64,000 nt of DNA, from assembly GCF_030442035.1 (NCBI RefSeq), contig NZ_JAUJEA010000001.1, positions 525,559 through 589,558 of the forward strand. The letters are read 5' to 3'. The position numbers were made by a program, and so were the translations under genes. The notes under the pieces were generated by a model. The model searched no databases. It was not told where the DNA came from and saw nothing but the letters and a program-made list of their open reading frames with translations. Positions 47,794 to 60,814 of this stretch are shown piece after piece. Origin of the DNA: Splendidivirga corallicola. Its GTDB lineage: Bacteria > Bacteroidota > Bacteroidia > Cytophagales > Cyclobacteriaceae. The stretch's first letter is position 1. Each line of letters starts with the position of its first letter.

Positions 47794-48969
47794 ATGCAAT
47801 CCATACTAAATCACAAGCTCGTTTGCCAAAGAGACCAGTTTTTCATTCCGAATGATGTGGCCTATTTGAACTGTGCATATATGTCACCGTCTTCTAAAAG
47901 AGTGGATGATGTTGGACAGAAGGCTTTAATGCTGAAAAGATTTCCATACCAGATAACCGCACAGGATTTCTTTGATAATGTTTCAAAACTTAGGTCTGCA
48001 TTTGGGAACTTGATCAATACCATTGATTCCGATAGAATAGCAGTAATTCCCTCCGTATCGTATGGACTAAGTAGTGTTGCCAATAACATTCGCATTGGAA
48101 AGGGTGATAATATCATCATGGCGCATGAGCAATTTCCCAGCAATGTATATACCTGGAAATCATTGGCACAGAAATCTGGTGCAGATCTTTTGACTGTTAA
48201 GCCACCTTTAGATACTGATAATAGAGGAAAACAATGGAATGAAAGAATTTTAGAGGCTATTGACCAGAATACCAAACTCGTCGCTATTTCCAATGTTCAT
48301 TGGGCAGATGGTACTTTATTCGATTTAAAAAGAATACGGGAAAGAACAAGAGAAGTAGATACCCTTCTTGTGATTGATGGAACACAATCAGTAGGTGCAC
48401 TTCCTTTTGATATAGCTGATATCGAACCTGATGCACTTGTTTGTGCAGGATACAAGTGGTTGACCGGCCCTTATTCCATAGGGCTTGCCTATTATGGACC
48501 TTATTTTGATGATAAAGAGCCAATTGAAGAGAATTGGATTAACCGAAAAGAAAGTGAAGATTTTGCCAACCTGGTCAATTATCAAGATGAATATAAACCA
48601 AAAGCATTGCGGTATTCCGTAGGAGAGCAAAGTAATTTCGTATTGGTTCCAATGTTGCTGGAAGCAATAATTCAACTCAAAGAATGGGGTATTGAGAACA
48701 TTCAAAGTTATTGTACGGAACTGATGAGTACACCGATTGCTGAATTGCAGGATCTGGGATGTAAAATTGAAGACGGTGAATACCGGGGTAATCATTTGAT
48801 TGGAGCAAGATTACCGGAGCACTTGCAACTCGAACAATTGACCAACGAGTTGGTCAAAAGAAAAATTTATGTTTCTATTCGGGGTGATGCTATCAGGATC
48901 TCCACAAACATATATAACCATGCCGAAGATCTAAACAGGCTTGTTGACTGTATAAGAGATCTGAGCTAA
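47794..48969 (+). CDS. aminotransferase class V-fold PLP-dependent enzyme
   Basis: …LLVIDGTQSVGALPFDIADIEPDALVCAGYKWLTGPYSIGLAYY… contains the class V fold PLP-Lys region (AGYKWL). Confidence 0.6.
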   Translation: MQSILNHKLVCQRDQFFIPNDVAYLNCAYMSPSSKRVDDVGQKALMLKRFPYQITAQDFFDNVSKLRSAFGNLINTIDSDRIAVIPSVSYGLSSVANNIRIGKGDNIIMAHEQFPSNVYTWKSLAQKSGADLLTVKPPLDTDNRGKQWNERILEAIDQNTKLVAISNVHWADGTLFDLKRIRERTREVDTLLVIDGTQSVGALPFDIADIEPDALVCAGYKWLTGPYSIGLAYYGPYFDDKEPIEENWINRKESEDFANLVNYQDEYKPKALRYSVGEQSNFVLVPMLLEAIIQLKEWGIENIQSYCTELMSTPIAELQDLGCKIEDGEYRGNHLIGARLPEHLQLEQLTNELVKRKIYVSIRGDAIRISTNIYNHAEDLNRLVDCIRDLS

Positions 48970-50630
48970 TCCAATAATTTAATTTCAATTCGCCTATTTT
49001 TCATCCTGTTCCCATAGGTATCATTGGTTGTAAGTGGCTGAGAATCGCCAAATCCTGAGATACTCAATCTGTCGGGTGGAACTCCCTTATCGATGAAATA
49101 GTTAAGAAGTGTTTCGGCTTGTTTTTGCGTTCTATCATTGTGATAGGTATATTTTAATTCGTAAGCTTCGGTCACTGATTCTTCCGAATGGGTAGTAAAC
49201 GTGGAATCCTCCTCCATTTCCACACTAGTGCTGGCACTGTCCGTATCATAATTCGGAATTTCAGGTTGAGCCAGGTAAACAGTATCCACAGACATTTCTG
49301 TGAGCCCCTCCCGGTAGATCGAATCTCTCAGGACTTCGTCCGTATGGATCCCAATTTCTAAATTAATATTTGGATGATCCTTGAGGATTTTCATAAGCCT
49401 CCTAAGTTCTAAGTTGGATTCGGGTCTCAGAGCTGCTGAATTAGGTTCAAAAACAATATTCTGACTAACGAAATTCAAGCCAGGTTTAATCCTTTTTAAA
49501 GGCACTTCAATCTTTTCTTTGATCGAGGAATCCAATGAATCTTTGTAATAAATTTTTGAATAATAAAAGTGTTCTTTATCTAGCGAAACAACTGAGAAAT
49601 CATAGGCATCTCCGACAGGGAAAATCATTTGAAAATGTCCGTTATGCTCGCTTGTTCTTGCATATTGTACACGTTTTTGGCTATTAGCATCATACACCTG
49701 AACAAATGCTTTAATAGGTTCGCCTGATACTTCATCTATTGCCGTTCCTTCCATTAAAACCACCTTTTGAGGACGAAACTGCTCGGGCAATTTGGATACC
49801 ATTATATTGTGAAAATCGCGAAACTTTGATGAAAAGTAAACCTCTGTCCCTTTGGCTGGTACACTCGCAAAAAGGTCATCTGACGATGTATTCAGAAAAT
49901 ACAAAGGTTCCGGCTGGCTCCAAACTCCATCCATATTTTTCGCAATAAACAAATCCATACCCCCTTTCCCACTTCTGTCTGATGCGAAGATTAATGTTTT
50001 ATTATCAGGAAGAATTTTTGGCATCGATGCATTTCCATTATTGATGATACCTGAAAGTCGTGTTGGCTCATTCCAAAGCTCTTTATTCCTTCTTTGTGCT
50101 ACCCAAAGTTCACAACCTCCGGCCTCATTTTTATTCATTTGACTACAGCGCATGAAATAAATGGTTTGTCCATCGGGAGAAACAGATGGTGCACCATCAT
50201 GCCCTCCGGAATTAACAGGTTTCCCAATGTTCCGTGCAGGAGTCCAGTACCCTCCTTTCTTTTCAGTGAACATAATATCATATCCTCCAATTCCCTGCCC
50301 TCTTCTTGAACTGAAATAAATGGTTTTCCCATCATAACTCAAACTAAACCCCCTTATATAATTATAATCACTTGTTTTGTTCACTTCAGTAACACTTTCA
50401 GGGGTAGCCCATACCCCCGGTCTTGTTTGATAGGTATACATTAGCTCCAGTTGTTCACTTGGAGAATATGTGGAAAGGAAAATCATGGTTTTACCATCAC
50501 CACTTATGCTTGGAGCGATTTGATGTCTGCCGGTTATGTTGATGGTTTTGGGTAAAACCTTTCTGGCTATTTGGGCATTTATTTGGCTAATTGATGTCAG
50601 GGCGATTAAAGCAAAAATAATTCTTTTCAT
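48966..50630 (-). CDS. OmpA-family protein with N-terminal TolB-like (PD40) beta-propeller repeats
   Basis: Signal peptide. Repeated …SPDGKTIYFSS… type PD40 blades. C-terminal OmpA-like domain (…NLELRRLMKILKDHPNINLEIGIHTD… … GFGDSQPL…N…RRIEIKLL). Confidence 0.75.
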   Translation of the reverse strand: MKRIIFALIALTSISQINAQIARKVLPKTINITGRHQIAPSISGDGKTMIFLSTYSPSEQLELMYTYQTRPGVWATPESVTEVNKTSDYNYIRGFSLSYDGKTIYFSSRRGQGIGGYDIMFTEKKGGYWTPARNIGKPVNSGGHDGAPSVSPDGQTIYFMRCSQMNKNEAGGCELWVAQRRNKELWNEPTRLSGIINNGNASMPKILPDNKTLIFASDRSGKGGMDLFIAKNMDGVWSQPEPLYFLNTSSDDLFASVPAKGTEVYFSSKFRDFHNIMVSKLPEQFRPQKVVLMEGTAIDEVSGEPIKAFVQVYDANSQKRVQYARTSEHNGHFQMIFPVGDAYDFSVVSLDKEHFYYSKIYYKDSLDSSIKEKIEVPLKRIKPGLNFVSQNIVFEPNSAALRPESNLELRRLMKILKDHPNINLEIGIHTDEVLRDSIYREGLTEMSVDTVYLAQPEIPNYDTDSASTSVEMEEDSTFTTHSEESVTEAYELKYTYHNDRTQKQAETLLNYFIDKGVPPDRLSISGFGDSQPLTTNDTYGNRMKNRRIEIKLLD

Positions 50631-52431: not shown

Positions 52432-53814
52432 ATGAAACATTATAGATTTGAAGGGCTGATCCAAAATCACGAATGGTTGGCTCCCGCATACATAAGTGTA
52501 AATGAAAAGGGTGAAATAACCTATCTCTCAAACAAAAAAGAAGACGAGGACAGAGAATATGAGAAGGTTAATGGATATGCACTCCCTGGCTTTCAGAATG
52601 CACATTCACATGCCTTTCAGTATGCTATGGCCGGTCTAGCGGAGAAACATACCCACGGTTCCAACCCCGATGATTTTTGGTCATGGAGGGAAGCGATGTA
52701 TCAATTGGCCCTCAGCATCGATCCTGATCAGTTGGAAGCAATAGCAGCAATGCTTTATGCGGAAATGTTAAGGCATGGTTATACTTCAGTAGCAGAGTTT
52801 CACTATTTGCATCATCAAAAGGATGGGAATACTTATAACAATCTATCAGAGCTTGGTGAAAGGTTGATTTCCGCTGCACAAACAACCGGAATAAAAATAA
52901 CTTTGGTTCCAATGTTCTATCAAAAAGGAGGATTCGGAATGGATCCATCAACCAGGCAAAGAAGATTTATTTCAAAGGATCTTGATGCCTATATGAACCT
53001 TTTGGAAAGTTCTCAAAAGAGCACTGCCATATACAGCAATGCTAATTGCGGAATGGGTATTCACTCATTAAGAGCCGTAGAGCCGGAAACAGTTGTCAGG
53101 ACTATTCAGGAACTTCCTGATAGCATTCCTTTTCATATTCACATTTCAGAACAGTTAAAAGAAATCAATGATGCCATTTCTTTTTTGAAGAAGAGACCGG
53201 TAGAATGGCTTTCAGAAAATGTTCAGATGAATGACCATTTTCATCTTGTACATGCAACCCACGTTTCGTCCAATGAAATCAAAGTGATTGCTGAAAGTGG
53301 CGCACATGTAGTTCTTTGCCCATCCACTGAAGGCAATCTCGGAGATGGTATTTTCCCGTTGAGAGAATTTCAAGCGCTGGGTGGAAATTGGTCCATCGGC
53401 ACAGATAGCCATATCGGTCTGAATCCGCTTGAAGAATTACGAATTCTTGATTACGGGCAAAGATTAACTTCTCATAAACGTAATACATTCGTCTCATCTA
53501 CCTGTAAGGATAGTGGTTTATTTGCGTTGGAAAAATCCATTCTAGGGGGCAGAAAGGCCATGGGGAATCTAAACAACTCATACTTCGCCATTGGCGAATC
53601 GTTTGATGCTCTCATAATAGATAAGGCCCATCCTTTGTTAAGCTGTTCAAAGATTGATAACCTCATTTCAACTTTAATATATGCAGGAGATCCAACTTTT
53701 ATGCTGGGAACGATGGTCAATGGCCAATGGCTTGTAAAGAATCAACATCATAACAATATCGAATCTATCAAGAATAGATTTATGAGTGTAATGGCTGATT
53801 TAGGGATTAGATAA
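52432..53814 (+). CDS. hutF: formimidoylglutamate deiminase (amidohydrolase superfamily)
   Basis: …GYALPGFQNAHSHAFQYAMAG… is the metal-binding HxH strand typical of HutF-type deiminases. Length 460 aa. Confidence 0.7.
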   Translation: MKHYRFEGLIQNHEWLAPAYISVNEKGEITYLSNKKEDEDREYEKVNGYALPGFQNAHSHAFQYAMAGLAEKHTHGSNPDDFWSWREAMYQLALSIDPDQLEAIAAMLYAEMLRHGYTSVAEFHYLHHQKDGNTYNNLSELGERLISAAQTTGIKITLVPMFYQKGGFGMDPSTRQRRFISKDLDAYMNLLESSQKSTAIYSNANCGMGIHSLRAVEPETVVRTIQELPDSIPFHIHISEQLKEINDAISFLKKRPVEWLSENVQMNDHFHLVHATHVSSNEIKVIAESGAHVVLCPSTEGNLGDGIFPLREFQALGGNWSIGTDSHIGLNPLEELRILDYGQRLTSHKRNTFVSSTCKDSGLFALEKSILGGRKAMGNLNNSYFAIGESFDALIIDKAHPLLSCSKIDNLISTLIYAGDPTFMLGTMVNGQWLVKNQHHNNIESIKNRFMSVMADLGIR

Positions 53815-53849
53815 TCCTCGATCAGTTTGACCTCTCTTTGTACAAGGAA

Positions 53850-55640
53850 TTATATTTTTAGCTGGGCTCCAAACATAAAACCCATCCACATATTTGGATC
53901 ATTTTGATTGCTTAATTGCAATTTCTCCAATGGAATTCTGAGATCTTTTTTGGAAAAATAGGTATTCCAGGCTACACCTGTGAAAACATAAAAGTTTTTG
54001 ATCGAGGTCCTGATAAAAGGATTTACTCCAAAAAATAATCTAGGTCTAACTAACAAACTGAGTGATTCGGTAAAACCTGACTCATAATTGATATGCATTA
54101 GTTGCAGATCATAGTTGATGAATATACCCCTTCCATATTTTTCCCTGCCAAAAGCATAACCAAGTCCCCATATTGGTTCATCTTCTTGTGTAGAGAAATT
54201 TCTGCTATAGGAAATTGAATTGACCACATGCTCCGATCCGGTTCCCAGTTCTGTATTAAAAAGAAATAATTCGCTGGTATAAGTCCTAAAGTATCCCCTG
54301 GTATCACTGCTTATATTTAATAACCCTATAGGAAATCGTTGTTCACCATTCGACCAGTTAATCAATCCAAACTGAACACCATTCATATTGCTGACCCAAT
54401 TCACCAATCCAATTTGAAGGCCATCCATGTTACGTTTGGTATAATTGAAAAATCCTAGTTGCATACCGGTATTGGGTGATGAAAGCCTAGAATGTTTTCC
54501 CTCTATATTCCCTGCAAAGTTAAAAGCACCGATCTGTCCTCCGTTCAATCGTTTTTTAGTAATATTAAGAAAAGCAGTTATTTGGACTCCGGTTACTTCA
54601 TCAGCTGAAAAATTACTGATCCCAGCTAATTGAACACCTGTTGTGGATTTTCCCACAATATTCCAAATTCCTGAAATCTGAACTCCCGAAGCATATTCAT
54701 AAGCCACATTCGTAACTCCAGCCGTTTGAAATCCTTTCATCGAATTAAATAAAACATTGCTTCCGGCACTTGCCTGCCACCCCCAGGCATTTCCTCTGAC
54801 AATATTAACTAAACCCGAGGCCTGAAATCCTCGCATATTATGATGATACCCCCTCCTACTAATTTCTTTTATCTCTTTGTTGGTAAGATCATATAAATCA
54901 TCACCGCCTACTACGTTTGAAAATCCAGCAAGCTGAATACCATGCACATCATCAGTGCTAAAATTGGACAACCCCCCAATCTCTAAAAATCCACTTCCTC
55001 TTGAGTATCCTGAAAATATATTCAACGATATTGTATTAATATATTTACGAGAACCCATTCCATTAGTACCTATTCCCGGGACGAGGGAAACTTGCAATTT
55101 TCTTCTTTTTGATCGATGATCAACTTTTTCAACATCAATTCTCCTCAAATCCTTTTTTTTCAACTGTCTTAGATACAAATCATTGGTTAATTGATAACTC
55201 CCTCTGGGACGAATTTTGGATAGGTATATCTCTTCCCGGTAAATAGTATTTTGTACAGAGTTGGGTGTTTTTTGAGAATTAAGGGATTTCCTTTGCTTAG
55301 CTACTGATCTTGTTTTTTTTAAAATCATTTGAGCACCTATTATATGATACTCCACTTTTGCAATAGAAAACAACTCCTGAAGCGCAATACTTAAAGTCTG
55401 ATTATCAATTTCAATAGATATGTTTTGATGAAGCGGTAATTGATCCAGGCTATACGAAAAATCTATGTTATATTTTTTTGTAAGATCTTCTAATATATTT
55501 TCCAGAGAAGTAGAAGCATATTTAAATGAGACCTTCTCTTCAAACAAGGAAGATTGTGCAACGCCATCAAAGGATACAAAAAGGACAAATCCTATAAAGA
55601 AAAGAAAACGGCGATTAATTTTTGTTTTCCGAACACCCAT
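53850..55640 (-). CDS. STN-like N-terminal domain protein with ~12 tandem 16-20-aa G-x-Q-[IL]-[AG]-x-x-x-N repeats
   Basis: Signal peptide, then …FKYASTSLENILEDLTKKYNIDFSYSLDQL…ISIEIDNQTLSIALQELF… (secretin/TonB N-terminal-like domain). Repeats GFQASGLVNIV / GVQISGIWNIV / GVQLAGISNFS / GLQIGLVNWV / GVQFGLINWS and others. Sits where a TonB-dependent receptor is usually found after ECF-sigma/FecR. Confidence 0.5.
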   Translation of the reverse strand: MGVRKTKINRRFLFFIGFVLFVSFDGVAQSSLFEEKVSFKYASTSLENILEDLTKKYNIDFSYSLDQLPLHQNISIEIDNQTLSIALQELFSIAKVEYHIIGAQMILKKTRSVAKQRKSLNSQKTPNSVQNTIYREEIYLSKIRPRGSYQLTNDLYLRQLKKKDLRRIDVEKVDHRSKRRKLQVSLVPGIGTNGMGSRKYINTISLNIFSGYSRGSGFLEIGGLSNFSTDDVHGIQLAGFSNVVGGDDLYDLTNKEIKEISRRGYHHNMRGFQASGLVNIVRGNAWGWQASAGSNVLFNSMKGFQTAGVTNVAYEYASGVQISGIWNIVGKSTTGVQLAGISNFSADEVTGVQITAFLNITKKRLNGGQIGAFNFAGNIEGKHSRLSSPNTGMQLGFFNYTKRNMDGLQIGLVNWVSNMNGVQFGLINWSNGEQRFPIGLLNISSDTRGYFRTYTSELFLFNTELGTGSEHVVNSISYSRNFSTQEDEPIWGLGYAFGREKYGRGIFINYDLQLMHINYESGFTESLSLLVRPRLFFGVNPFIRTSIKNFYVFTGVAWNTYFSKKDLRIPLEKLQLSNQNDPNMWMGFMFGAQLKI

Positions 55641-56610
55641 TGCCTGTTAATTCAAATGTGTTCCCATTTTTTTGCTTATAAGAAACATTCATGGTAAACG
55701 CCATTACTTCCAAAATATGTTTGATATCTTCATTTTCAAACGTACCCCGGAAATGACAATTTAAAAGTTCTTTATTTATAACCTCAATATTAATGTGGAA
55801 GTGATTCTCCAAAATTTTTATCACATTATCAAGTAAATCATCCTGGAATACTAATCGATTTGTTTTCCAGGCTATCGAATTGGGATCACTTTTTTCAAAT
55901 TTACTGATTGAGTTTTTCAACTTGTCGAAGTTAGCGCTGTTCCCGGGATTAAGAAAAACCTTTTCCTGTAAATCACTTTTTAAAGACGAGAAAGCCACTT
56001 TTCCTGAAAGAACAACAACTTCTATATTGTTTTCTTTGGCGTAACTTCTAATATTAAAAGTCGTTCCCAATACTTCTGTAATAGTGTTTTGGGCATGGAC
56101 CATAAAGGGCCAATCATCTTTATGCGCTACATCAAAAAAAGCTTCTCCCACTATAAATACCTCTCTTTGGTGTTTTTCAAAATGCTCCGGAAACCGGATT
56201 ACGCTATTTTCATTCAATAATATTTTACTGCCATCTGGCAGAATAACCTCTTTCTGTTGATCGGATGAAGTAATTTCGTTCCATACCATTTCTTTGTTTT
56301 GATATTGATAAACCAGTATTGTAATACCGAACAATATCACCAAAACTGCGGCAGCTTTCAGAAACCAATGAACTGGTCTTTTTCCTGCTTTAACCGCATT
56401 AAACAAATTTTGCTCCAGGTCAATCTCCCATTTCCGAGGCAGCTCTTCTTTTTTTGAGACTTCAAAATAGTCAAATTGCGCTCGATCCGGATAAAACTCT
56501 TTGGGAAGGTCTTCACGTTCAAGCAATTTTAAAAGCAGCTCATCTTCTTCACGAGAAGTTTCTCCGTTGTAGTATTTTTCCAATAAGGATCTTAATTTAA
56601 GATCAGACAT
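55615..56610 (-). CDS. FecR-family anti-sigma factor
   Basis: Cytoplasmic N-terminus, one TM helix (…AAVLVILFGITILVY…), and a FecR/DUF4974-type periplasmic domain. Overlaps the ECF sigma stop. Confidence 0.8.
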   Translation of the reverse strand: MSDLKLRSLLEKYYNGETSREEDELLLKLLEREDLPKEFYPDRAQFDYFEVSKKEELPRKWEIDLEQNLFNAVKAGKRPVHWFLKAAAVLVILFGITILVYQYQNKEMVWNEITSSDQQKEVILPDGSKILLNENSVIRFPEHFEKHQREVFIVGEAFFDVAHKDDWPFMVHAQNTITEVLGTTFNIRSYAKENNIEVVVLSGKVAFSSLKSDLQEKVFLNPGNSANFDKLKNSISKFEKSDPNSIAWKTNRLVFQDDLLDNVIKILENHFHINIEVINKELLNCHFRGTFENEDIKHILEVMAFTMNVSYKQKNGNTFELTGNGCSENKN

Positions 56611-57106
56611 GATCGTGATATTTTACATATTTCTCTTTGATTTGTTTCCTCGCCCTTGATAAAATTACCCTAACATTATTTTCACTAAGATCTAGGATTC
56701 CGGAAATATCTCTTATGCTCAATCCTTCCACATTTCTCAATTGAAGGATAGCCCGCTGCTGTTCAGGCAAGGAACCGATAATTCGATCCATGATTTCCCT
56801 GTTATGCTTAAACGACATTACTTCCAAGGGTGTCGAATGGATGTCCTTCACTTCAATTGAATCCACGGAGAGCAGACTTGTTTTCTTTGATTTTAATTTA
56901 TTCAGACATAGATTTTTAGTGACCCTTATGGTAAAGGCCTCGAGGTTGTCATATTGACCAAGCGTTTCTTTTTTCGACCATAGTTTGAGAAAAACCTCCT
57001 GAACAACATCTTCTGCATCTTCACTGTTTTGCATCATCCATTTGGCCAATCGATACAACCTGTTCCTCAATCCATACACCTGTTCTTTAAAATCCTTTGA
57101 ACGCAT
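56603..57106 (-). CDS. ECF (sigma-70 family) RNA polymerase sigma factor
   Basis: Region 2 (…DAEDVVQEVFLKLW…) and region 4 HTH (…QRAILQLRNVEGLSIRDISGILDLSENNVRVILSRAR…). Confidence 0.85.
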   Translation of the reverse strand: MRSKDFKEQVYGLRNRLYRLAKWMMQNSEDAEDVVQEVFLKLWSKKETLGQYDNLEAFTIRVTKNLCLNKLKSKKTSLLSVDSIEVKDIHSTPLEVMSFKHNREIMDRIIGSLPEQQRAILQLRNVEGLSIRDISGILDLSENNVRVILSRARKQIKEKYVKYHDHV

Positions 57107-57276
57107 CCATAACTATAGACAAGTCTTAAACAAAAACATTACAAAAAAAGAAAAAATATTCCGGACGGTTACCTATGGAAAGAAAACAGCACATACCAAT
57201 CTCGCTGTTTAAACACTACCAAGTAAATTAAAAGGAATTATGGAGATCTTGTAGGGGAAAAATATATATCGAATTA

Positions 57277-58611
57277 TTATTTAACACTATAAAACAATCC
57301 GAACCCAAGTCCGAGTGAGTTGATAGATCTTTTTTCAGCTCCGAGCCTACCCAGGCCATATTGATAATTTACCTCCATCTGACCACTCAATCGTCTACTA
57401 AAAGCATGTTCAATTCCAAAAGATCCACTTAAAGAGCCAATATTTAAAGAAGGATTTTCAAACTTCCTATCCTCACTAAAAGCAATTACTTCTCCGTTTT
57501 CTATTTCTAAAAATGAATATTTGAATGACTGATTCACCAATATATCCAGTGTAGGTCCTGCTCCAACAAACACACCCCAGTTATAATTCAGGGACTTATG
57601 ATATCTCAAATAAAGTGGAATTTGTACCGTTGTATTTTCAATTTGGATCTCATCGGGAGTATTTTCTAATTCAAGATATCCCGGATATCTTTGCAAATCA
57701 CTATCTGTGAAGTTGTCGTCATCCACCTCATCCAGTTTGTAGTTGATCTTGCTGAAGCTCACACCGGACAATAATCTTAAATCTCTTTTAAGTTCAACCT
57801 CGGTAAATAAGCTGTGCTTTAAGGAGAGAAATCTTTCTCCGATATCCGGATCAGGGATTAACATACCACTAGCCAATCCAATATTTATGTGTAGCGGATT
57901 TCTGTTATAGCGTCTTTTACGAGAATCTTTTCTCTGATATTTTTCATTTATCTCGATCAAATCTCCATTGAGTGAAAGGTAATCACTAAGGAATGGTACG
58001 GGTTCAATCAAATTGACCGAGCTCCTATTGATTTGATCATATTCAGAATTAGGATCTCTACCAGGATCATCAAAACCACTGTAAAGAGATCTTAAAAAAG
58101 GATTCTGGCTTCTGAAAGCATCACCATTCAATATTGAAAAATTTCTATTCCATACATTGGTACCTCCTCCTTCCGTGGCTATTAATGATGATGGATGGGT
58201 AGCGTTGGAAGCATAAAGATTATTATGATGATCCCAATGGTCCCTGTAACGTTGCGACCCATAATCATTATTTCCTCTTTCAAATGCTGCACTAATAAAA
58301 ACAGTATCAGACACAATTTGCGTGATTTTAATTGTGTCTATAACAGTTTGTTTTGGTGAATGTTGCAGTTCCTGAAGTAATTGTGATATTTCATTTTTGT
58401 CACTACGAACATTCCAAAATAGCCAAAAATTGATCAATGTGAATAGGGTAAGACCTGCAGCCCAAAGGCCAGATTTCCACTTAATGAACCATGGATCGAA
58501 TCGCACATGATCCAGAAGATGGCTCATTTGCTCCCATGCTTTTTCGTCAAATCTTGGGCTAAGGGATTCTAGTTTATCCTTAATTTTGTCATCAAATGAT
58601 CTATTATCCAT
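57277..58611 (-). CDS. membrane-anchored protein co-translated with an ECF sigma factor (anti-sigma candidate) with beta-rich C-terminal domain
   Basis: ATGA start/stop overlap with the sigma gene at 58604-58611. ~45-aa cytoplasmic N-terminus, one TM helix (…LWAAGLTLFTLINFWLFW…), and a C-terminal region with alternating hydrophobic beta-strand pattern. Confidence 0.4.
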   Translation of the reverse strand: MDNRSFDDKIKDKLESLSPRFDEKAWEQMSHLLDHVRFDPWFIKWKSGLWAAGLTLFTLINFWLFWNVRSDKNEISQLLQELQHSPKQTVIDTIKITQIVSDTVFISAAFERGNNDYGSQRYRDHWDHHNNLYASNATHPSSLIATEGGGTNVWNRNFSILNGDAFRSQNPFLRSLYSGFDDPGRDPNSEYDQINRSSVNLIEPVPFLSDYLSLNGDLIEINEKYQRKDSRKRRYNRNPLHINIGLASGMLIPDPDIGERFLSLKHSLFTEVELKRDLRLLSGVSFSKINYKLDEVDDDNFTDSDLQRYPGYLELENTPDEIQIENTTVQIPLYLRYHKSLNYNWGVFVGAGPTLDILVNQSFKYSFLEIENGEVIAFSEDRKFENPSLNIGSLSGSFGIEHAFSRRLSGQMEVNYQYGLGRLGAEKRSINSLGLGFGLFYSVK

Positions 58612-59170
58612 AATGACTAAAATCCTCTTTATTCAGTTCCACAATCATCTTCTTCAGCTTCATTCGGGCCTTTGCCAAGTTTGACTTTGAGGTCCCTTCG
58701 CTGATACCCAACTTTTTCCCTATTTCTTTGTGATTATACCCTTCAACCACATATAAGTTAAAAACCATCCGGTAAGCGGGTGAGAGGTTTCCAACTATTC
58801 TAAGAATTTCCTCGGCAGATACTCTATCAATCACTTCCGGGTCAATAAATTCAGTATCTGCCTTTTCAATTTCTAATGTGTGTCTATGATTCGTGTTTCT
58901 CCTATATTGATCAATAGCCGTATTAACAAAAATTCTTCTGGCCCATGCTTTAAAGGATTGATTGGGCAAGTGTTGATCCAGTTTGGTGAATATTTTCAGA
59001 AACCCATCGTTCAAAATTTCCATTGCCTCATCCTCAGATTTCGTATATCTAAGGCAAATACTCTTGGCATAAGGAAAAAAAAGCATATAAAGCTTCTTTT
59101 GAGCTTTTCTGTCTCCTTTTTTACATTCCTTTATAAGAGGATCAAGAATATTTTTGTTCTCGAGATTCAA
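58604..59170 (-). CDS. ECF (sigma-70 family) RNA polymerase sigma factor
   Basis: Region 2 (…EDEAMEILNDGFLKIF…) and region 4 (…YRMVFNLYVVEGYNHKEIGKKLGISEGTSKSNLAKAR…). Confidence 0.8.
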   Translation of the reverse strand: MNLENKNILDPLIKECKKGDRKAQKKLYMLFFPYAKSICLRYTKSEDEAMEILNDGFLKIFTKLDQHLPNQSFKAWARRIFVNTAIDQYRRNTNHRHTLEIEKADTEFIDPEVIDRVSAEEILRIVGNLSPAYRMVFNLYVVEGYNHKEIGKKLGISEGTSKSNLAKARMKLKKMIVELNKEDFSHYG

Positions 59171-59338
59171 CTATTATTGGCCATTTGATCAACAAGACGT
59201 AACATATTCAAAAAGCGTTGCTACGGTCTTTTCGATTTAATTAAAATTTTAAATTAATAAAAATATAGCTATTTTGCCAGTTGGCAACCGTTCAAACAAG
59301 GTCTCCGTCATTATTTTCAGAATGTCAAACGCAGTACA

Positions 59339-60814
59339 ATGAAAGGGTATTTGATAATTGTAGTGGTACTGATTTTATTCTCTTGTGGGGATGATCCAAT
59401 AAACGACCGGTTTGGTCTTGCGGTTGAAGAGGAGATACTTGTGTCCAATGTTTGGAAGGTGGGTACGTTCCAGGATGGAAGCACAAATAGTGCTGCGGTA
59501 TACAATTCTGTATTCATCCAGTTTAATGACAATAACACCTTCGATCTGATTAACGAAGCAAGAAATGTCTACGGCGGAGAGTGGGCACTTACAGAAAACA
59601 ATAGTCTGCTGGTTATCCGAAATCATGAGACCACTCCGGACATTTATAAAGATATTGGTGATGAATGGGTAGTTGCCAAAATCAATGATCAGGAGCTTAG
59701 AATCATTGAAAGGGATGGAGATGGTCAAGAAGAATTTACTTTTTTACCCGCCACTCAAATAGAGCTTTCAGGCATATGCACAGCTTTACAAAAAAGATTT
59801 GTAGATAGTTTATGGACCATCAGTTATTTTTCAAATAATGGAGCCGATCTAACAAATTCATTGAGGAATTATACTTTCGATTTTGACGATTCCGGGGTGC
59901 TTAGGGCTTTTAACAACAATGTGGCTGATATCGGATCTTGGGTAACTGGTATCAGATGTGGTAAGCTTCGAATCAATCTTAAAAACTCCAGTGATCTTAA
60001 ACCTTTATCAACAAAATGGAAGGTTATTTATTCTTCACCACAACTCATAAAACTGGTTAGTGAAAGAGCGGAAAAGAATATGGAGGTGCACTTTTCAACA
60101 CAAAATGCGATCCTCTTAACTGATGATGAGATCTGCCTTCGCTCCAATGAAATCATTAAAAACGGGTATTGGCGAGCCTCAAAATACATTGAGGGTTATG
60201 ATAGGCCTACAGTTCCATTTGCAGGTTTCATTTTGAAATTTGATAGAAATGATGAACTGATTGCTATAAGTAATACAAAGAAAATAGTAGGTGAATGGAA
60301 TTTCATAGAAACCTGCAATAAAATAGCCATACACTTTTCAGATACAAGTTTAAAAGAAATATCAGGAACGACATGGCACCTTACCCATCTGTCTGACAGC
60401 CTTATTACATTGTTGGTAGAAGATGATATTGAAAGAAGGGAAATACATCTGGTAAAACAAACAGATCCTCAAGAGAAATGTAATTTTCTTAAGCAATTCC
60501 TAAACGATAATTTCTCATGGAAGGTGACAAAATTTGATGAAAATGGTGATCTACTCACCGAGGAGTTCAGCAGTTCAAAAATTGCTTTTGCTTCCGACAA
60601 CAGCCTCAAGATATTGTCCGGAAACAATGTAATTCTTGGTGAGTGGGTTCTCAATGACGATTGCGAGGCAATCACCATTTCAATTTCTGAAGATCAGGTT
60701 TCCTTCTCCAGGCTCAATGCTTTTTGGCATATTACAGAATTTTCGGAAGAACAGTTAGTACTGGTTCATGAAGAGAATGACATAAGAAAAGAAATGGTTT
60801 TAACAAAAAATTAA
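59339..60814 (+). CDS. lipoprotein with 3-4 internal lipocalin-like repeats, hypothetical
   Basis: Lipobox (VVVLILFSCGDD). Recurring …G.W………I……… modules (GSWVTGIRCGKLRINL / VGEWNFIETCNKIAIHF / LGEWVLNDDCEAITISI). Confidence 0.4.
   Translation: MKGYLIIVVVLILFSCGDDPINDRFGLAVEEEILVSNVWKVGTFQDGSTNSAAVYNSVFIQFNDNNTFDLINEARNVYGGEWALTENNSLLVIRNHETTPDIYKDIGDEWVVAKINDQELRIIERDGDGQEEFTFLPATQIELSGICTALQKRFVDSLWTISYFSNNGADLTNSLRNYTFDFDDSGVLRAFNNNVADIGSWVTGIRCGKLRINLKNSSDLKPLSTKWKVIYSSPQLIKLVSERAEKNMEVHFSTQNAILLTDDEICLRSNEIIKNGYWRASKYIEGYDRPTVPFAGFILKFDRNDELIAISNTKKIVGEWNFIETCNKIAIHFSDTSLKEISGTTWHLTHLSDSLITLLVEDDIERREIHLVKQTDPQEKCNFLKQFLNDNFSWKVTKFDENGDLLTEEFSSSKIAFASDNSLKILSGNNVILGEWVLNDDCEAITISISEDQVSFSRLNAFWHITEFSEEQLVLVHEENDIRKEMVLTKN

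What the first reader, a model, noticed from the sequence alone, without database searches (positions are those of the whole stretch)
53850..57106. ECF-sigma / FecR module followed by an STN-domain G-x-Q repeat protein instead of a TonB-dependent receptor
In Bacteroidota, sigma/anti-sigma (FecR) pairs normally precede a SusC-like TonB-dependent transducer whose N-terminal extension contacts FecR. Here the downstream gene keeps an STN-like N-terminal domain. The rest, however, is ~12 tandem G-[FV]-Q-[IL]-[AS]-G-x-x-N repeats plus a beta-rich C-terminus, and it is far too short (596 aa) for a 22-strand TBDT. This could be a new class of cell-surface signalling partner, or an outer-membrane repeat protein whose expression the ECF sigma controls.
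Basis: partly seen in the sequence, partly recalled or inferred. Interest (0 to 1): 0.55.

Follow-up and report, generated by a model that had tools for sequence, protein, structure and literature searches.

The report
FecR partner: STN-solenoid-small-barrel outer-membrane protein
A three-gene operon encodes a stress-type sigma factor, its membrane anti-sigma factor (FecR), and an outer-membrane protein that keeps the small docking domain normally found on nutrient transporters but replaces the transporter with a rod of repeats and a tiny barrel; this protein belongs to a very large, unstudied family that probably signals without any transport.

Summary
Three overlapping minus-strand genes encode an ECF sigma factor (56603-57106), a FecR-type anti-sigma factor (55615-56610) and a 596-aa secreted protein (53850-55640; WP_346750171.1, Splendidivirga corallicola). 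A confident AF2 model (pLDDT 85.8) shows five parts: signal peptide, STN-fold domain (aa 30-112), disordered basic linker, beta-solenoid of 16-residue G-x-Q-x-A-G-x-x-N coils (NCBIfam LA_2272 repeat), and an 8-stranded OmpA/OmpX-like barrel. It has no Plug, no 22-strand barrel and no TonB box, so it is not a decayed TBDT. The solenoid-barrel body defines at least 9,483 50%-identity clusters. About half of the best hits carry the N-terminal STN domain. In 12 of 12 STN-bearing homolog loci examined, the gene directly follows sigma-FecR(FecR_C); most STN-less short forms stand alone. The STN domain is homologous to the FecR C-terminal domain (hhalign 95.9%), as in PupB/PupR. Most likely the protein is a TonB-independent outer-membrane docking partner that tethers and shields FecR. 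Together they would form a two-protein envelope-spanning sensor, comparable to Dma anti-sigma factors (one is encoded next door) and to Pseudomonas VreA. Six of 12 related loci add an STN-less TBDT-like gene; the window has none. The function is inferred and untested. I rate it a new variant of cell-surface signalling.

The parts
56603..57106 (-). ECF sigma factor, 167 aa (WP_346750173.1)
   Evidence: Pfam Sigma70_r2 and Sigma70_r4_2. NCBIfam NF058625 sigma_PG0214/GFO_1088 equivalog scores 186.9 bits against a cutoff of 130. Overlaps the FecR gene by 8 nt.
55615..56610 (-). FecR-type single-pass anti-sigma factor, 331 aa (WP_346750172.1): N-terminal anti-sigma region, TM near aa 83-105, periplasmic FecR domain (aa 114-205) and FecR_C/STN-like domain (aa 252-318)
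   Evidence: Pfam FecR 60.4 bits and FecR_C 58 bits. The TM was read from the sequence.
53850..55640 (-). Target gene, 596 aa (WP_346750171.1, annotated 'DUF4974 domain-containing protein'), including the stop codon
   Evidence: AF2 model with pLDDT 85.8 and pTM 0.67.
55554..55640 (-). Signal peptide, about aa 1-29 (basic n-region, hydrophobic core, ...GVAQ/SS); no lipobox cysteine
   Evidence: Sequence reading. Only 4 of 264 family members have a lipobox-like motif.
55305..55553 (-). STN-type (FecR_C-like) domain, aa 30-112, beta-alpha-beta / beta-alpha-beta-beta
   Evidence: Pfam FecR_C above its gathering score. Domain model pLDDT 92.1. Foldseek matches 4m0n (TM 0.73, rmsd 1.7), PilQ N0, FpvA, PupA, FoxA and PupR. 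Profile versus PDB: PupA 2a02 at E 0.0016. hhalign versus the operon FecR C-termini: 95.9 %.
55110..55304 (-). Disordered K/R-rich linker, aa 113-177; it replaces the CarbopepD_reg-like domain present in most long-form homologs
   Evidence: pLDDT 31-49. Homologs carry PF13715 at about aa 109-206.
54303..55109 (-). Beta-solenoid of LA_2272-type repeats, aa 178-446 (about 14 two-strand coils; helical insertion at aa 246-263)
53853..54302 (-). C-terminal 8-stranded outer-membrane beta-barrel, aa 447-596
57107..57276 (-). Intergenic region upstream of the sigma gene; presumed promoter of the operon (not identified)
   Evidence: Sequence. The sigma-70 consensus scan was at chance level, and no motif was shared with other loci by eye.

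Best explanation
The three genes form one operon for a cell-surface-signalling-like module in which the outer-membrane component is not a transporter.

Shown:
- The third protein is secreted by a type-I signal peptide.
- It consists of an STN-fold domain, a roughly 65-aa disordered basic linker, a roughly 270-aa beta-solenoid built of 16-residue G-x-Q-x-A-G-x-x-N coils, and a C-terminal 8-stranded OmpA/OmpX-like barrel.
- In relatives, an STN domain on this protein always goes with such a FecR.

Inferred:
- The barrel sits in the outer membrane. Because an 8-strand barrel has both ends on the periplasmic side and has no pore, the solenoid, linker and STN domain hang into the periplasm.
- The STN domain docks on the periplasmic CJM+STN domain of FecR, as PupB does on PupR and FoxA on FoxR. 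The two proteins together would then bridge the outer and inner membranes.
- As shown for FoxA/FoxR, docking would shield FecR from site-1 proteolysis and keep the sigma factor sequestered.
- There is no plug, 22-strand barrel or TonB box, so the trigger cannot be TonB-coupled ligand uptake. The most likely trigger is loss or displacement of the outer-membrane partner: failed assembly, envelope distortion or vesiculation that pulls the membranes apart, or a periplasmic partner binding the solenoid.
- That loss would expose FecR to proteolysis and release the sigma factor, which re-induces the operon and resets the system.

For: Operon structure with overlapping ORFs. Family assignments of sigma and FecR.

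STN fold: Foldseek top hit is the C-terminal domain of a Bacteroidales FecR-like anti-sigma (4m0n), followed by secretin N0, FpvA, PupA, FoxA and PupR. PDB profile hits are. hhalign between the STN profile and the FecR C-terminus profile gives 95.9 %, E 5.6e-9.

Linkage: 12 of 12 STN-bearing homolog loci from Saprospirales, Cytophagales, Sphingobacteriales and Chitinophagales have sigma-FecR(FecR_C) directly upstream on the same strand. About 40 STN-less short forms mostly have no sigma or FecR. The four short forms that do have a sigma carry a short anti-sigma with no FecR or FecR_C domain.

The family is large, so this is not a one-off decay product: 9,483 representatives at E<=1e-3. Among the best 144 new representatives, 65 are long with STN and 77 are short without.

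Mechanistic precedents:
- The FoxA signalling domain binds FoxR without signal and protects it from proteolysis (PMC11637429).
- PupR CCSSD consists of CJM plus an STN subdomain and binds the PupB signalling domain (PMC7186176).
- Dma1 spans both membranes with an 8-strand barrel (PMC10927553).
- VreA is a non-TBDT STN 'receptor' (PMC2729926).
Against: - No experiment or complex prediction shows that the STN domain binds this FecR.
- Gene linkage could reflect co-regulation only.
- The periplasmic location of the solenoid rests on a predicted 8-strand count and on general OMP topology rules. NCBIfam calls the repeat 'surface'.
- The stimulus is pure inference.
- Six of 12 related loci carry an STN-less TBDT-like gene downstream, so in those loci a TonB-dependent input cannot be excluded. 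The genome of the window organism outside these 64 kb was not examined.
- Pfam STN itself is below threshold for this protein (16.1 against 28.4).
- Two different ECF subfamilies serve the module, so the output regulon is probably not uniform.
Confidence: 0.58

Rival explanations
1. Split transducer. The STN-solenoid-barrel protein is a signalling adaptor for a TonB-dependent receptor that itself lacks an STN domain. The TBDT binds or imports a ligand in a TonB-dependent way and passes the change to the adaptor, perhaps through its CarboxypepD_reg domain or through a short-form paralog. The adaptor then relays it to FecR. In the window organism the TBDT would be encoded elsewhere.
For: In L086, L087, L088, L090 and L091, and in fragments in L004, an orthologous protein of about 785 aa lies downstream in the same orientation. 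These proteins are 40-79 % identical to each other and have CarboxypepD_reg, Plug (22.8-23.6 bits, just under the gathering score of 23.9) and TonB_dep_Rec_b-barrel (36 bits in L090), with no STN. Short-form paralogs lie between the two genes in three of these loci.
Against: No such gene lies downstream in the window, where the next gene is convergent, and none was found anywhere in the 64 kb. L001, L038, L044, L047, L085 and L089 also lack it within the fetched flanks. There is no evidence of contact between the two outer-membrane proteins.
Confidence: 0.2
2. Regulon member with feedback only. The protein is a structural outer-membrane/periplasmic scaffold whose expression is driven by the ECF sigma factor. 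Its STN domain merely titrates and stabilises FecR as negative feedback, and the real stimulus is sensed by FecR itself or by another protein.
For: STN-less short forms exist in thousands and are sometimes placed behind a different sigma/anti-sigma pair (L008-L010, L030), so solenoid-barrel proteins may be ordinary ECF targets. Overproduced signalling domains inhibit CSS (section title in PMC11637429).
Against: The strict 12/12 coupling of STN with FecR_C-bearing FecR, and the position as the last cistron of the sigma/anti-sigma operon with overlapping ORFs, are what is seen for genuine transducers. This reading differs from the best explanation only in where the signal enters.
Confidence: 0.14
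3. Surface adhesin or autotransporter-like beta-helix displayed on the cell, with the barrel as translocator and the STN domain unrelated to FecR.
Against: An 8-strand barrel has no pore for a passenger, whereas autotransporters use 12-16 strands. The solenoid joins strand 1 within about 4 residues, on the same side as the C-terminus. The N-terminal STN domain would have to be exported as well, which contradicts its strict linkage to periplasmic FecR_C.
Confidence: 0.05
4. Truncated or decayed TonB-dependent transducer pseudogene.
For: The position behind sigma/FecR and the N-terminal STN domain resemble a SusC-like transducer.
Against: There is no Plug or TonB_dep_Rec hit at E<=1. The model confidently shows a different fold. 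The ORF is intact, with a signal peptide and a C-terminal OMP-type motif. Thousands of conserved homologs exist.
Confidence: 0.01

Closest known systems
Cell-surface signalling with TonB-dependent transducers (FecA/FecR/FecI, PupB/PupR, FoxA/FoxR; SusC-like transducers with ECF/anti-sigma in Bacteroidota)
   Same: Same gene logic: ECF sigma, FecR-type anti-sigma with a FecR_C/STN-like C-terminus, and an outer-membrane protein with an N-terminal STN signalling domain. The two partner domains are homologous STN folds, as in PupB NTSD and PupR (PMC7186176). Most family members also carry a CarboxypepD_reg (NTE-like) domain, as SusC proteins do (PMC7782687).
   Different: No plug, no 22-strand barrel and no recognisable TonB box; instead a beta-solenoid plus an 8-strand barrel. 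It therefore cannot transport, and the classic ligand/TonB trigger is absent. Domain order is STN then CarboxypepD_reg (8/8), whereas Gray et al. state that the NTE precedes the STN in SusCs (I did not check this on a SusC). The sigma is NF058625 (PG0214/GFO_1088), not TIGR02985.
VreA-VreI-VreR (PUMA3) of Pseudomonas aeruginosa
   Same: A CSS-type system whose 'receptor' is not a TBDT but a protein carrying an STN signalling domain, predicted to contact the FecR-like regulator (PMC2729926).
   Different: VreA is small (about 23 kDa), mostly soluble in the periplasm, and has a TolA/TonB-like C-terminal domain. The protein here is anchored by an OM barrel and has a long repeat solenoid. The gene order, phylum and sigma group also differ.
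[quoted passage not shown]
   Same: An ECF sigma is held by a system that reaches from the inner membrane to an 8-stranded beta-barrel in the outer membrane through a disordered periplasmic segment, and the family is restricted to Bacteroidota (PMC10927553). A Dma-type pair lies immediately upstream in the window (57277..59170).
   Different: Dma is one polypeptide (anti-sigma domain, TM, linker, barrel). Here the bridge would be two polypeptides joined by an STN:FecR_C contact, with a beta-solenoid inserted. No sequence homology between them was shown.
LA_2272 / VC2662 repeat proteins (NCBIfam NF047436, NF047435, NF047437)
   Same: The repeat region meets the NF047436 cutoff. Repeat-only relatives occur in Spirochaetes, Kiritimatiellia, Gemmatimonadota, Ignavibacteria and other phyla.
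   Different: Those families have no known function. LA_2272 appears only in in-silico surface-protein lists, and VC2662 is an uncharacterised hypothetical protein with no phenotype reported. They lack the STN domain and the FecR linkage.
Beta-solenoid repeat proteins (MpAFP region IV, curli CsgA, TPS domains) and 8-strand OMPs (OmpA-N, OmpX, OmpW, NspA, PagL)
   Same: Fold-level similarity of the two halves of the body. The Q/N ladders are reminiscent of curli repeats.
   Different: Sequence identity is only 2-14 %. No solved structure combines the two halves; the best hits cover no more than 281 of the 419 body residues.

Membership tests
TonB-dependent transducer (FecA / SusC-like) | N-terminal STN signalling domain | tested here: met
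   Fold-level and profile matches. Pfam FecR_C is above its gathering score.
TonB-dependent transducer (FecA / SusC-like) | Plug domain (PF07715) | tested here: not met
   No hit at E<=1. No such domain in the model.
TonB-dependent transducer (FecA / SusC-like) | 22-stranded beta-barrel (PF00593) | tested here: not met
TonB-dependent transducer (FecA / SusC-like) | TonB box between the STN domain and the plug | tested here: inconclusive
   No DEVVV-like motif in aa 110-180 on reading the sequence. TonB boxes are weakly conserved, so absence cannot be proven.
TonB-dependent transducer (FecA / SusC-like) | Gene adjacent to an ECF sigma and a FecR-type anti-sigma | tested here: met
   The arrangement is conserved in 12/12 long-form loci.
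Pfam STN (PF07660) | Score at or above the gathering threshold of 28.4 bits | tested here: not met
   16.1 bits for the window protein. Several homologs pass at 29.4-31.2 bits.
Pfam FecR_C (PF16344, ex-DUF4974) | Score at or above the gathering threshold of 24.4 bits | tested here: met
   27.6 bits at aa 40-106. hhalign to the operon FecR C-termini gives 95.9 %.
NCBIfam NF047436 LA_2272 surface repeat | Score at or above the cutoff of 25 bits | tested here: met
   56.9 bits over 3 stretches.
Eight-stranded outer-membrane beta-barrels (OmpA-N/OmpX/OmpW class) | Eight antiparallel transmembrane strands closing a barrel | tested here: met
Eight-stranded outer-membrane beta-barrels (OmpA-N/OmpX/OmpW class) | C-terminal beta-signal ending in an aromatic residue | tested here: inconclusive
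   The family ends in F in 126 of 264 members and in L in 63. The window protein ends ...GAQLKI.
Eight-stranded outer-membrane beta-barrels (OmpA-N/OmpX/OmpW class) | Location in the outer membrane | not testable with these tools
   Needs cell fractionation.
[quoted passage not shown] | One polypeptide with a cytoplasmic anti-sigma region, a TM helix, a disordered linker and a C-terminal 8-strand barrel | tested here: not met
   The target has a cleavable signal peptide and no anti-sigma region or TM helix; those are on the separate FecR protein. It may work like Dma but is not a member.
VreA-type CSS receptor (PUMA3) | STN domain followed by a TolA/TonB-like C-terminal domain; soluble periplasmic protein | tested here: not met
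   The STN domain is present, but the rest is a solenoid plus barrel. VreA features are from PMC2729926.
ECF sigma NF058625 (PG0214/GFO_1088 equivalog) | Score at or above 130 bits | tested here: met
   186.9 bits. L038 also passes at 170.7 bits. Six other modules use TIGR02985 instead.
FecR-type anti-sigma factor | FecR (PF04773) and FecR_C (PF16344) periplasmic domains after one TM helix | tested here: met
   60.4 and 58 bits.

The most novel reading that the evidence does not exclude
STN-solenoid-barrel proteins are a previously unrecognised, TonB-independent class of outer-membrane partners for FecR-type anti-sigma factors, with thousands of members across Bacteroidota. Together with FecR they would form a two-protein tether from the outer to the inner membrane. 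That tether would report on the state of the envelope (outer-membrane protein assembly, membrane spacing, vesiculation) rather than on an imported nutrient. In some loci it would also serve as a detachable signalling subunit for TonB-dependent receptors that lack their own STN domain.
Probability: 0.4. Interest if true: 0.78.

Novelty: new variant of a known kind. Interest (0 to 1): 0.62.

Why it matters
FecR/ECF modules are among the most numerous signalling systems in Bacteroidota. They are routinely read as 'nutrient sensing through a SusC-like transporter'.

If a large share of them instead pair with a non-transporting STN protein, three things follow:
- Those annotations and the inferred regulons are wrong.
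- STN:FecR docking would be a general, portable coupling device, not a feature of TonB-dependent transport.
- Bacteroidota would have a second way, besides Dma factors, to wire the outer membrane mechanically to an ECF sigma factor.

The family also offers a clean system for separating the 'protection from proteolysis' role of the signalling domain from ligand transport. It also gives a first functional handle on the widespread LA_2272-type repeat.

Tried and rejected
- Truncated-TBDT hypothesis: rejected.
- DNA-level tandem repeats: none found, so there is no recent expansion or artefact.
- Sigma-70 promoter and terminator scan of 53600-59400: counts at chance level (22 against 21.1 expected; 4 against 3.8), uninformative.
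- Comparison by eye of the 140 nt upstream of the sigma genes in six loci: no shared ECF-type motif. Not pursued, because two sigma subfamilies are involved.
A6 was also too divergent.
- The genome scan with A2 returned mostly short forms, so the long-form census relied on exact look-ups.
- P0077 was not on record.
- The afdb50 fold library was unavailable.
- Window search for paralogs, for STN-less TBDT orthologs and for DUF2807: nothing found.
- Literature searches for LA_2272, VC2662, DUF4974 / STN-domain protein names, and ECF239-241 context found no description of this architecture.
- PG0214 papers describe only an ECF sigma plus hypothetical proteins.
- Caveat: my iterated FecR HMM absorbed the 188-aa short anti-sigma factors of L008-L010 and L030. 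Their E-values are therefore inflated. Pfam finds no FecR or FecR_C in the one scanned, L008.


Full report
**1. What is in the sequence**

Three minus-strand ORFs occupy exactly the coordinates given:
- an ECF sigma factor (56603..57106, 167 aa);
- a FecR-like protein (55615..56610, 331 aa);
- a 596-aa protein (53850..55640).

The first two overlap by 8 nt and the last two by 26 nt. The next gene downstream (52432..53814, an amidohydrolase) is convergent. The three genes therefore form a self-contained operon.

An exact look-up identifies the proteins as WP_346750173.1, WP_346750172.1 and WP_346750171.1 of Splendidivirga corallicola (Fulvivirgaceae bacterium BMA10). The target is annotated only as 'DUF4974 domain-containing protein'.

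Family assignments:
- The sigma factor meets the NCBIfam equivalog NF058625 (PG0214/GFO_1088 family) at 186.9 bits against a cutoff of 130. It falls below the cutoff of TIGR02985, the subfamily usually linked to SusC loci.
- FecR has Pfam FecR (60.4 bits) and FecR_C (58 bits) after one TM helix.

**2. The repeat observation**

The target contains 11 strict G-x-Q-x(2,3)-[GAFLS]-x(1,2)-N units between aa 234 and 428. Seven consecutive units are spaced exactly 16 residues apart.

There are twelve G-x-Q motifs in aa 176-450. None of 10,000 composition-preserving shuffles reached that number; the maximum was 8.

The repeat is a known but uncharacterised type. NCBIfam NF047436 'LA_2272 family surface repeat' scores 56.9 bits against a cutoff of 25.

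Tandem Repeats Finder finds nothing at the DNA level, so the repeats are ancient and diverged.

**3. Structure**

AF2 with a 65-sequence alignment gives a confident model: mean pLDDT 85.8, with 410 residues above 90. Its parts are:
- a signal peptide;
- a compact beta-alpha-beta / beta-alpha-beta-beta domain (aa 36-109);
- a disordered K/R-rich stretch (aa about 113-177, pLDDT 31-49);
- a long series of short two-strand coils (aa 178-446);
- eight longer strands (aa 450-595).

No solved structure covers both halves.

It also rules out a 22-strand TBDT. Pfam finds no Plug or TonB_dep_Rec domain even at E<=1, and no DEVVV-type TonB box is visible in the linker.

**4. The N-terminal domain**

For this particular protein, Pfam FecR_C passes its gathering score (27.6 against 24.4). 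Pfam STN does not (16.1 against 28.4). Many homologs do pass STN.

- A profile of the domain from 31 family members hits the PupA signalling domain (2a02, E 0.0016). Weaker hits are PilQ N0 domains and a Bacteroidales anti-sigma C-terminus.
- A domain-only AF2 model (pLDDT 92.1) was searched with Foldseek. [quoted passage not shown] Secretin N0 domains follow, then the signalling domains of FpvA, PupA and FoxA, and PupR (6ovk_R).
- A profile-profile comparison between this domain and the C-terminal 85 residues of the FecR proteins encoded in the same operons (13 loci) gives 95.9 % probability and E 5.6e-9.

The 'STN-like' assignment therefore holds at the superfamily and fold level. The two presumed partner domains are homologous STN folds. 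This is the situation described for the PupB signalling domain and the STN subdomain of PupR (PMC7186176).

**5. Family and gene context**

The protein is not an oddity. A word-indexed search found at least 687 homologs. An exhaustive profile search with the solenoid-barrel body alone found 9,483 representatives of 50 %-identity clusters at E<=1e-3, and 2,936 at E<=1e-30.

Two forms exist:
- long forms of about 550-790 aa, with the N-terminal STN domain and usually a CarboxypepD_reg-like domain;
- short forms of about 350-480 aa, which start with a signal peptide directly followed by the solenoid.

Among the best 144 new representatives, 65 are long with STN, 77 are short without it, and 2 are long without it. 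Among the hits, 87 of 87 long forms have the domain.

I examined gene context for 12 independent long-form loci. These were:
- Haliscomenobacter hydrossis L001;
- Imperialibacter L038;
- Pedobacter heparinus L044;
- Chitinophaga vietnamensis L047;
- Spirosoma knui L085;
- Cytophagales WSM2-2 L088;
- metagenomic loci L086, L087, L089, L090 and L091;
- L004, where the STN domain is a separate small ORF.

All 12 have an ECF sigma gene and a FecR gene directly upstream on the same strand. The FecR carries FecR_C in the ten loci where Pfam domain hits are on record; the Haliscomenobacter record (L001) lists only the FecR domain, and L038, L044 and L047 were identified with my own FecR profile rather than Pfam.

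About 40 short-form loci from the genome scan mostly have neither. In the four short-form loci that do follow a sigma gene (L008-L010, L030), the anti-sigma is a 188-aa single-pass protein; Pfam finds no FecR or FecR_C domain in the one scanned, L008. So an STN domain on the outer-membrane protein and a FecR-type anti-sigma (with FecR_C wherever Pfam hits are on record) appear together or not at all in this sample. This is the strongest argument that the two proteins contact each other.

The sigma factor is not fixed. The window and L038 use NF058625; six other modules use TIGR02985.

**6. A complication from the relatives**

In L086, L087, L088, L090 and L091, and in three fragments in L004, the operon continues. 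It adds an orthologous protein of about 785 aa with:
- CarboxypepD_reg;
- Plug, at 22.8-23.6 bits, just under the gathering score of 23.9;
- TonB_dep_Rec_b-barrel, at 36 bits in L090.

This TonB-dependent-receptor-like protein has no STN domain of its own.

Five loci also contain a short-form paralog of the target (L044, L047, L086, L090, L091). Four contain a DUF2807 gene.

The window, L038, L085 and L089 show the bare three-gene version. The window has no such gene anywhere in its 64 kb.

'Instead of a TBDT' is therefore correct for this locus. A 'split transducer' arrangement, with STN on one outer-membrane protein and transport on another, stays open for the family.

**7. How it most likely works**

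Shown:
- the anatomy;
- the folds, though on a predicted model only;
- the homology of the partner domains;
- the conserved linkage.

Inferred from established knowledge:
- Outer-membrane barrels with an even number of strands have both termini in the periplasm, and 8-strand barrels have no pore. The solenoid joins strand 1 within about four residues. The solenoid, the linker and the STN domain must then all be periplasmic, which is where FecR_C is.
- The STN domain would dock on the FecR periplasmic domain, as in PupB/PupR.
- Applied here, the outer-membrane protein would tether and shield FecR. Loss of the contact would start FecR proteolysis and release the sigma factor.
- Because there is no plug or TonB box, the trigger cannot be TonB-coupled ligand uptake. 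I consider perturbation of the outer-membrane partner the most likely input. This could be failed assembly, envelope distortion, vesiculation, or a periplasmic ligand or partner on the solenoid.

[quoted passage not shown] Those proteins also end in an 8-strand barrel connected through a disordered periplasmic segment (PMC10927553).

The gene pair immediately upstream in the window (57277..59170) has exactly that Dma1/Das1 architecture: an ECF sigma plus a 444-aa protein with one TM helix, a long linker and a C-terminal OMP_b-brl_2 domain at 33 bits, above the gathering score of 27.

**8. Comparison with what is known**

- It works like cell-surface signalling but fails the membership test for TonB-dependent transducers: plug and 22-strand barrel were tested and not met.
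- The closest conceptual precedent for a non-TBDT STN partner is VreA of the P. aeruginosa PUMA3 system. VreA is a soluble periplasmic protein with an STN domain and a TolA/TonB-like domain (PMC2729926). Its architecture, location and phylum all differ from the protein here.
- The repeat belongs to the LA_2272/VC2662 group. The literature for that group offers only in-silico surface-protein lists and one null phenotype.
- The ECF re-classification paper notes FecR-linked groups ECF239/240 in Bacteroidetes. It states that ECF239 lacks the carbohydrate-binding neighbourhood, but it does not describe this partner.
- Searches for the database names of these proteins found no study.
- In eight of eight long forms the domain order is STN then CarboxypepD_reg. 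Gray et al. write that the NTE precedes the STN in SusC transducers. I did not verify that on a SusC sequence.

**9. Verdict**

The interpretation as a new kind of signalling partner is the best-supported reading but remains untested.

I rate it a new variant of a known kind: cell-surface signalling with a non-transporting STN-solenoid-barrel partner. It represents a very large uncharacterised family. Interest is 0.62.

Confidence in the core claim, that this is an outer-membrane STN partner of FecR acting without its own TonB-dependent transport, is about 0.58. Confidence in the specific stimulus is much lower.

Noticed in passing
window 57277-59170 (minus strand): Immediately upstream of the operon lies a second ECF module: a sigma factor (58604..59170, 188 aa) overlapping by 8 nt a 444-aa protein. 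That protein has a short N-terminus, one TM helix (about aa 48-68), a long low-complexity linker and a C-terminal OMP_b-brl_2 domain (33 bits, above the gathering score of 27). This is the architecture of the Dma1/Das1 dual membrane-spanning anti-sigma system of Bacteroides thetaiotaomicron (PMC10927553).
   Followed up: partly
L086 8100-10502; L087 8035-10395; L088 6876-9287; L090 9034-11400; L091 8865-11234; L004 8743-10879 (three fragments): Half of the related loci carry, downstream of the long form, an orthologous protein of about 785 aa with CarboxypepD_reg, Plug and a TonB-dependent-receptor barrel but no STN domain. This suggests that in those loci the signalling domain and the transporter sit on separate outer-membrane proteins.
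   Followed up: partly
L044 1118-2278; L047 7080-8258; L086 6895-8133; L090 7501-8811; L091 7302-8669: A short-form paralog (solenoid plus barrel, no STN; phmmer 1e-35 to 1e-49 against the window protein for three of them) sits next to the long form in 5 of 12 loci. This hints at a hetero-complex of long and short forms.
   Followed up: partly
L004 5426-5920 and 6001-7248: In this MAG the STN domain is a separate 164-aa ORF in front of a 415-aa solenoid-barrel ORF, and the TBDT-like gene is split into three ORFs. This could be frameshift errors, decay, or a genuinely split arrangement.
   Followed up: no
L008 4762-7350; L009; L010 3072-5659; L030 412-2962: Some STN-less short forms follow an ECF sigma gene plus a 188-aa single-pass anti-sigma ending in ...LLVSGSR; Pfam finds no domain in the one scanned (L008). 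Solenoid-barrel proteins may thus be ECF-linked even without the STN/FecR_C pair.
   Followed up: partly
L001 8515-9246; L004 3129-3791; L044 2324-2974; L087 7298-8020: A DUF2807 gene recurs next to the module in 4 of 12 loci. Its role is unknown.
   Followed up: no
window 56603-57106 versus L001, L004, L044, L047, L085-L087 sigma genes: The same FecR plus long-form pair is served by two different ECF subfamilies: NF058625 (PG0214/GFO_1088) in the window and L038, and TIGR02985 in six other loci.
   Followed up: partly
P0022, P0072, P0111, P0037, P0104, P0114, P0051, P0075: In long forms the STN domain (about aa 42-107) precedes the CarboxypepD_reg-like domain (about aa 109-206) in 8 of 8 cases. 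Gray et al. 2021 state that in SusC transducers the NTE precedes the STN. If that is so, the order is inverted here. The window protein lacks the CarboxypepD_reg domain and has a disordered basic linker in its place.
   Followed up: partly
window 48966-50630 (minus strand): A 554-aa protein with PD40 (TolB-like beta-propeller) repeats and a C-terminal OmpA peptidoglycan-binding domain. Similar PD40/OmpA genes also appear near the module in L087. This is possibly just common envelope gene content.
   Followed up: no
window 59339-60814 (plus strand): A 491-aa probable lipoprotein (LFSCGDD...) with no Pfam hit and internally repetitive ~120-aa segments, transcribed divergently from the Dma-like pair.
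   Followed up: no
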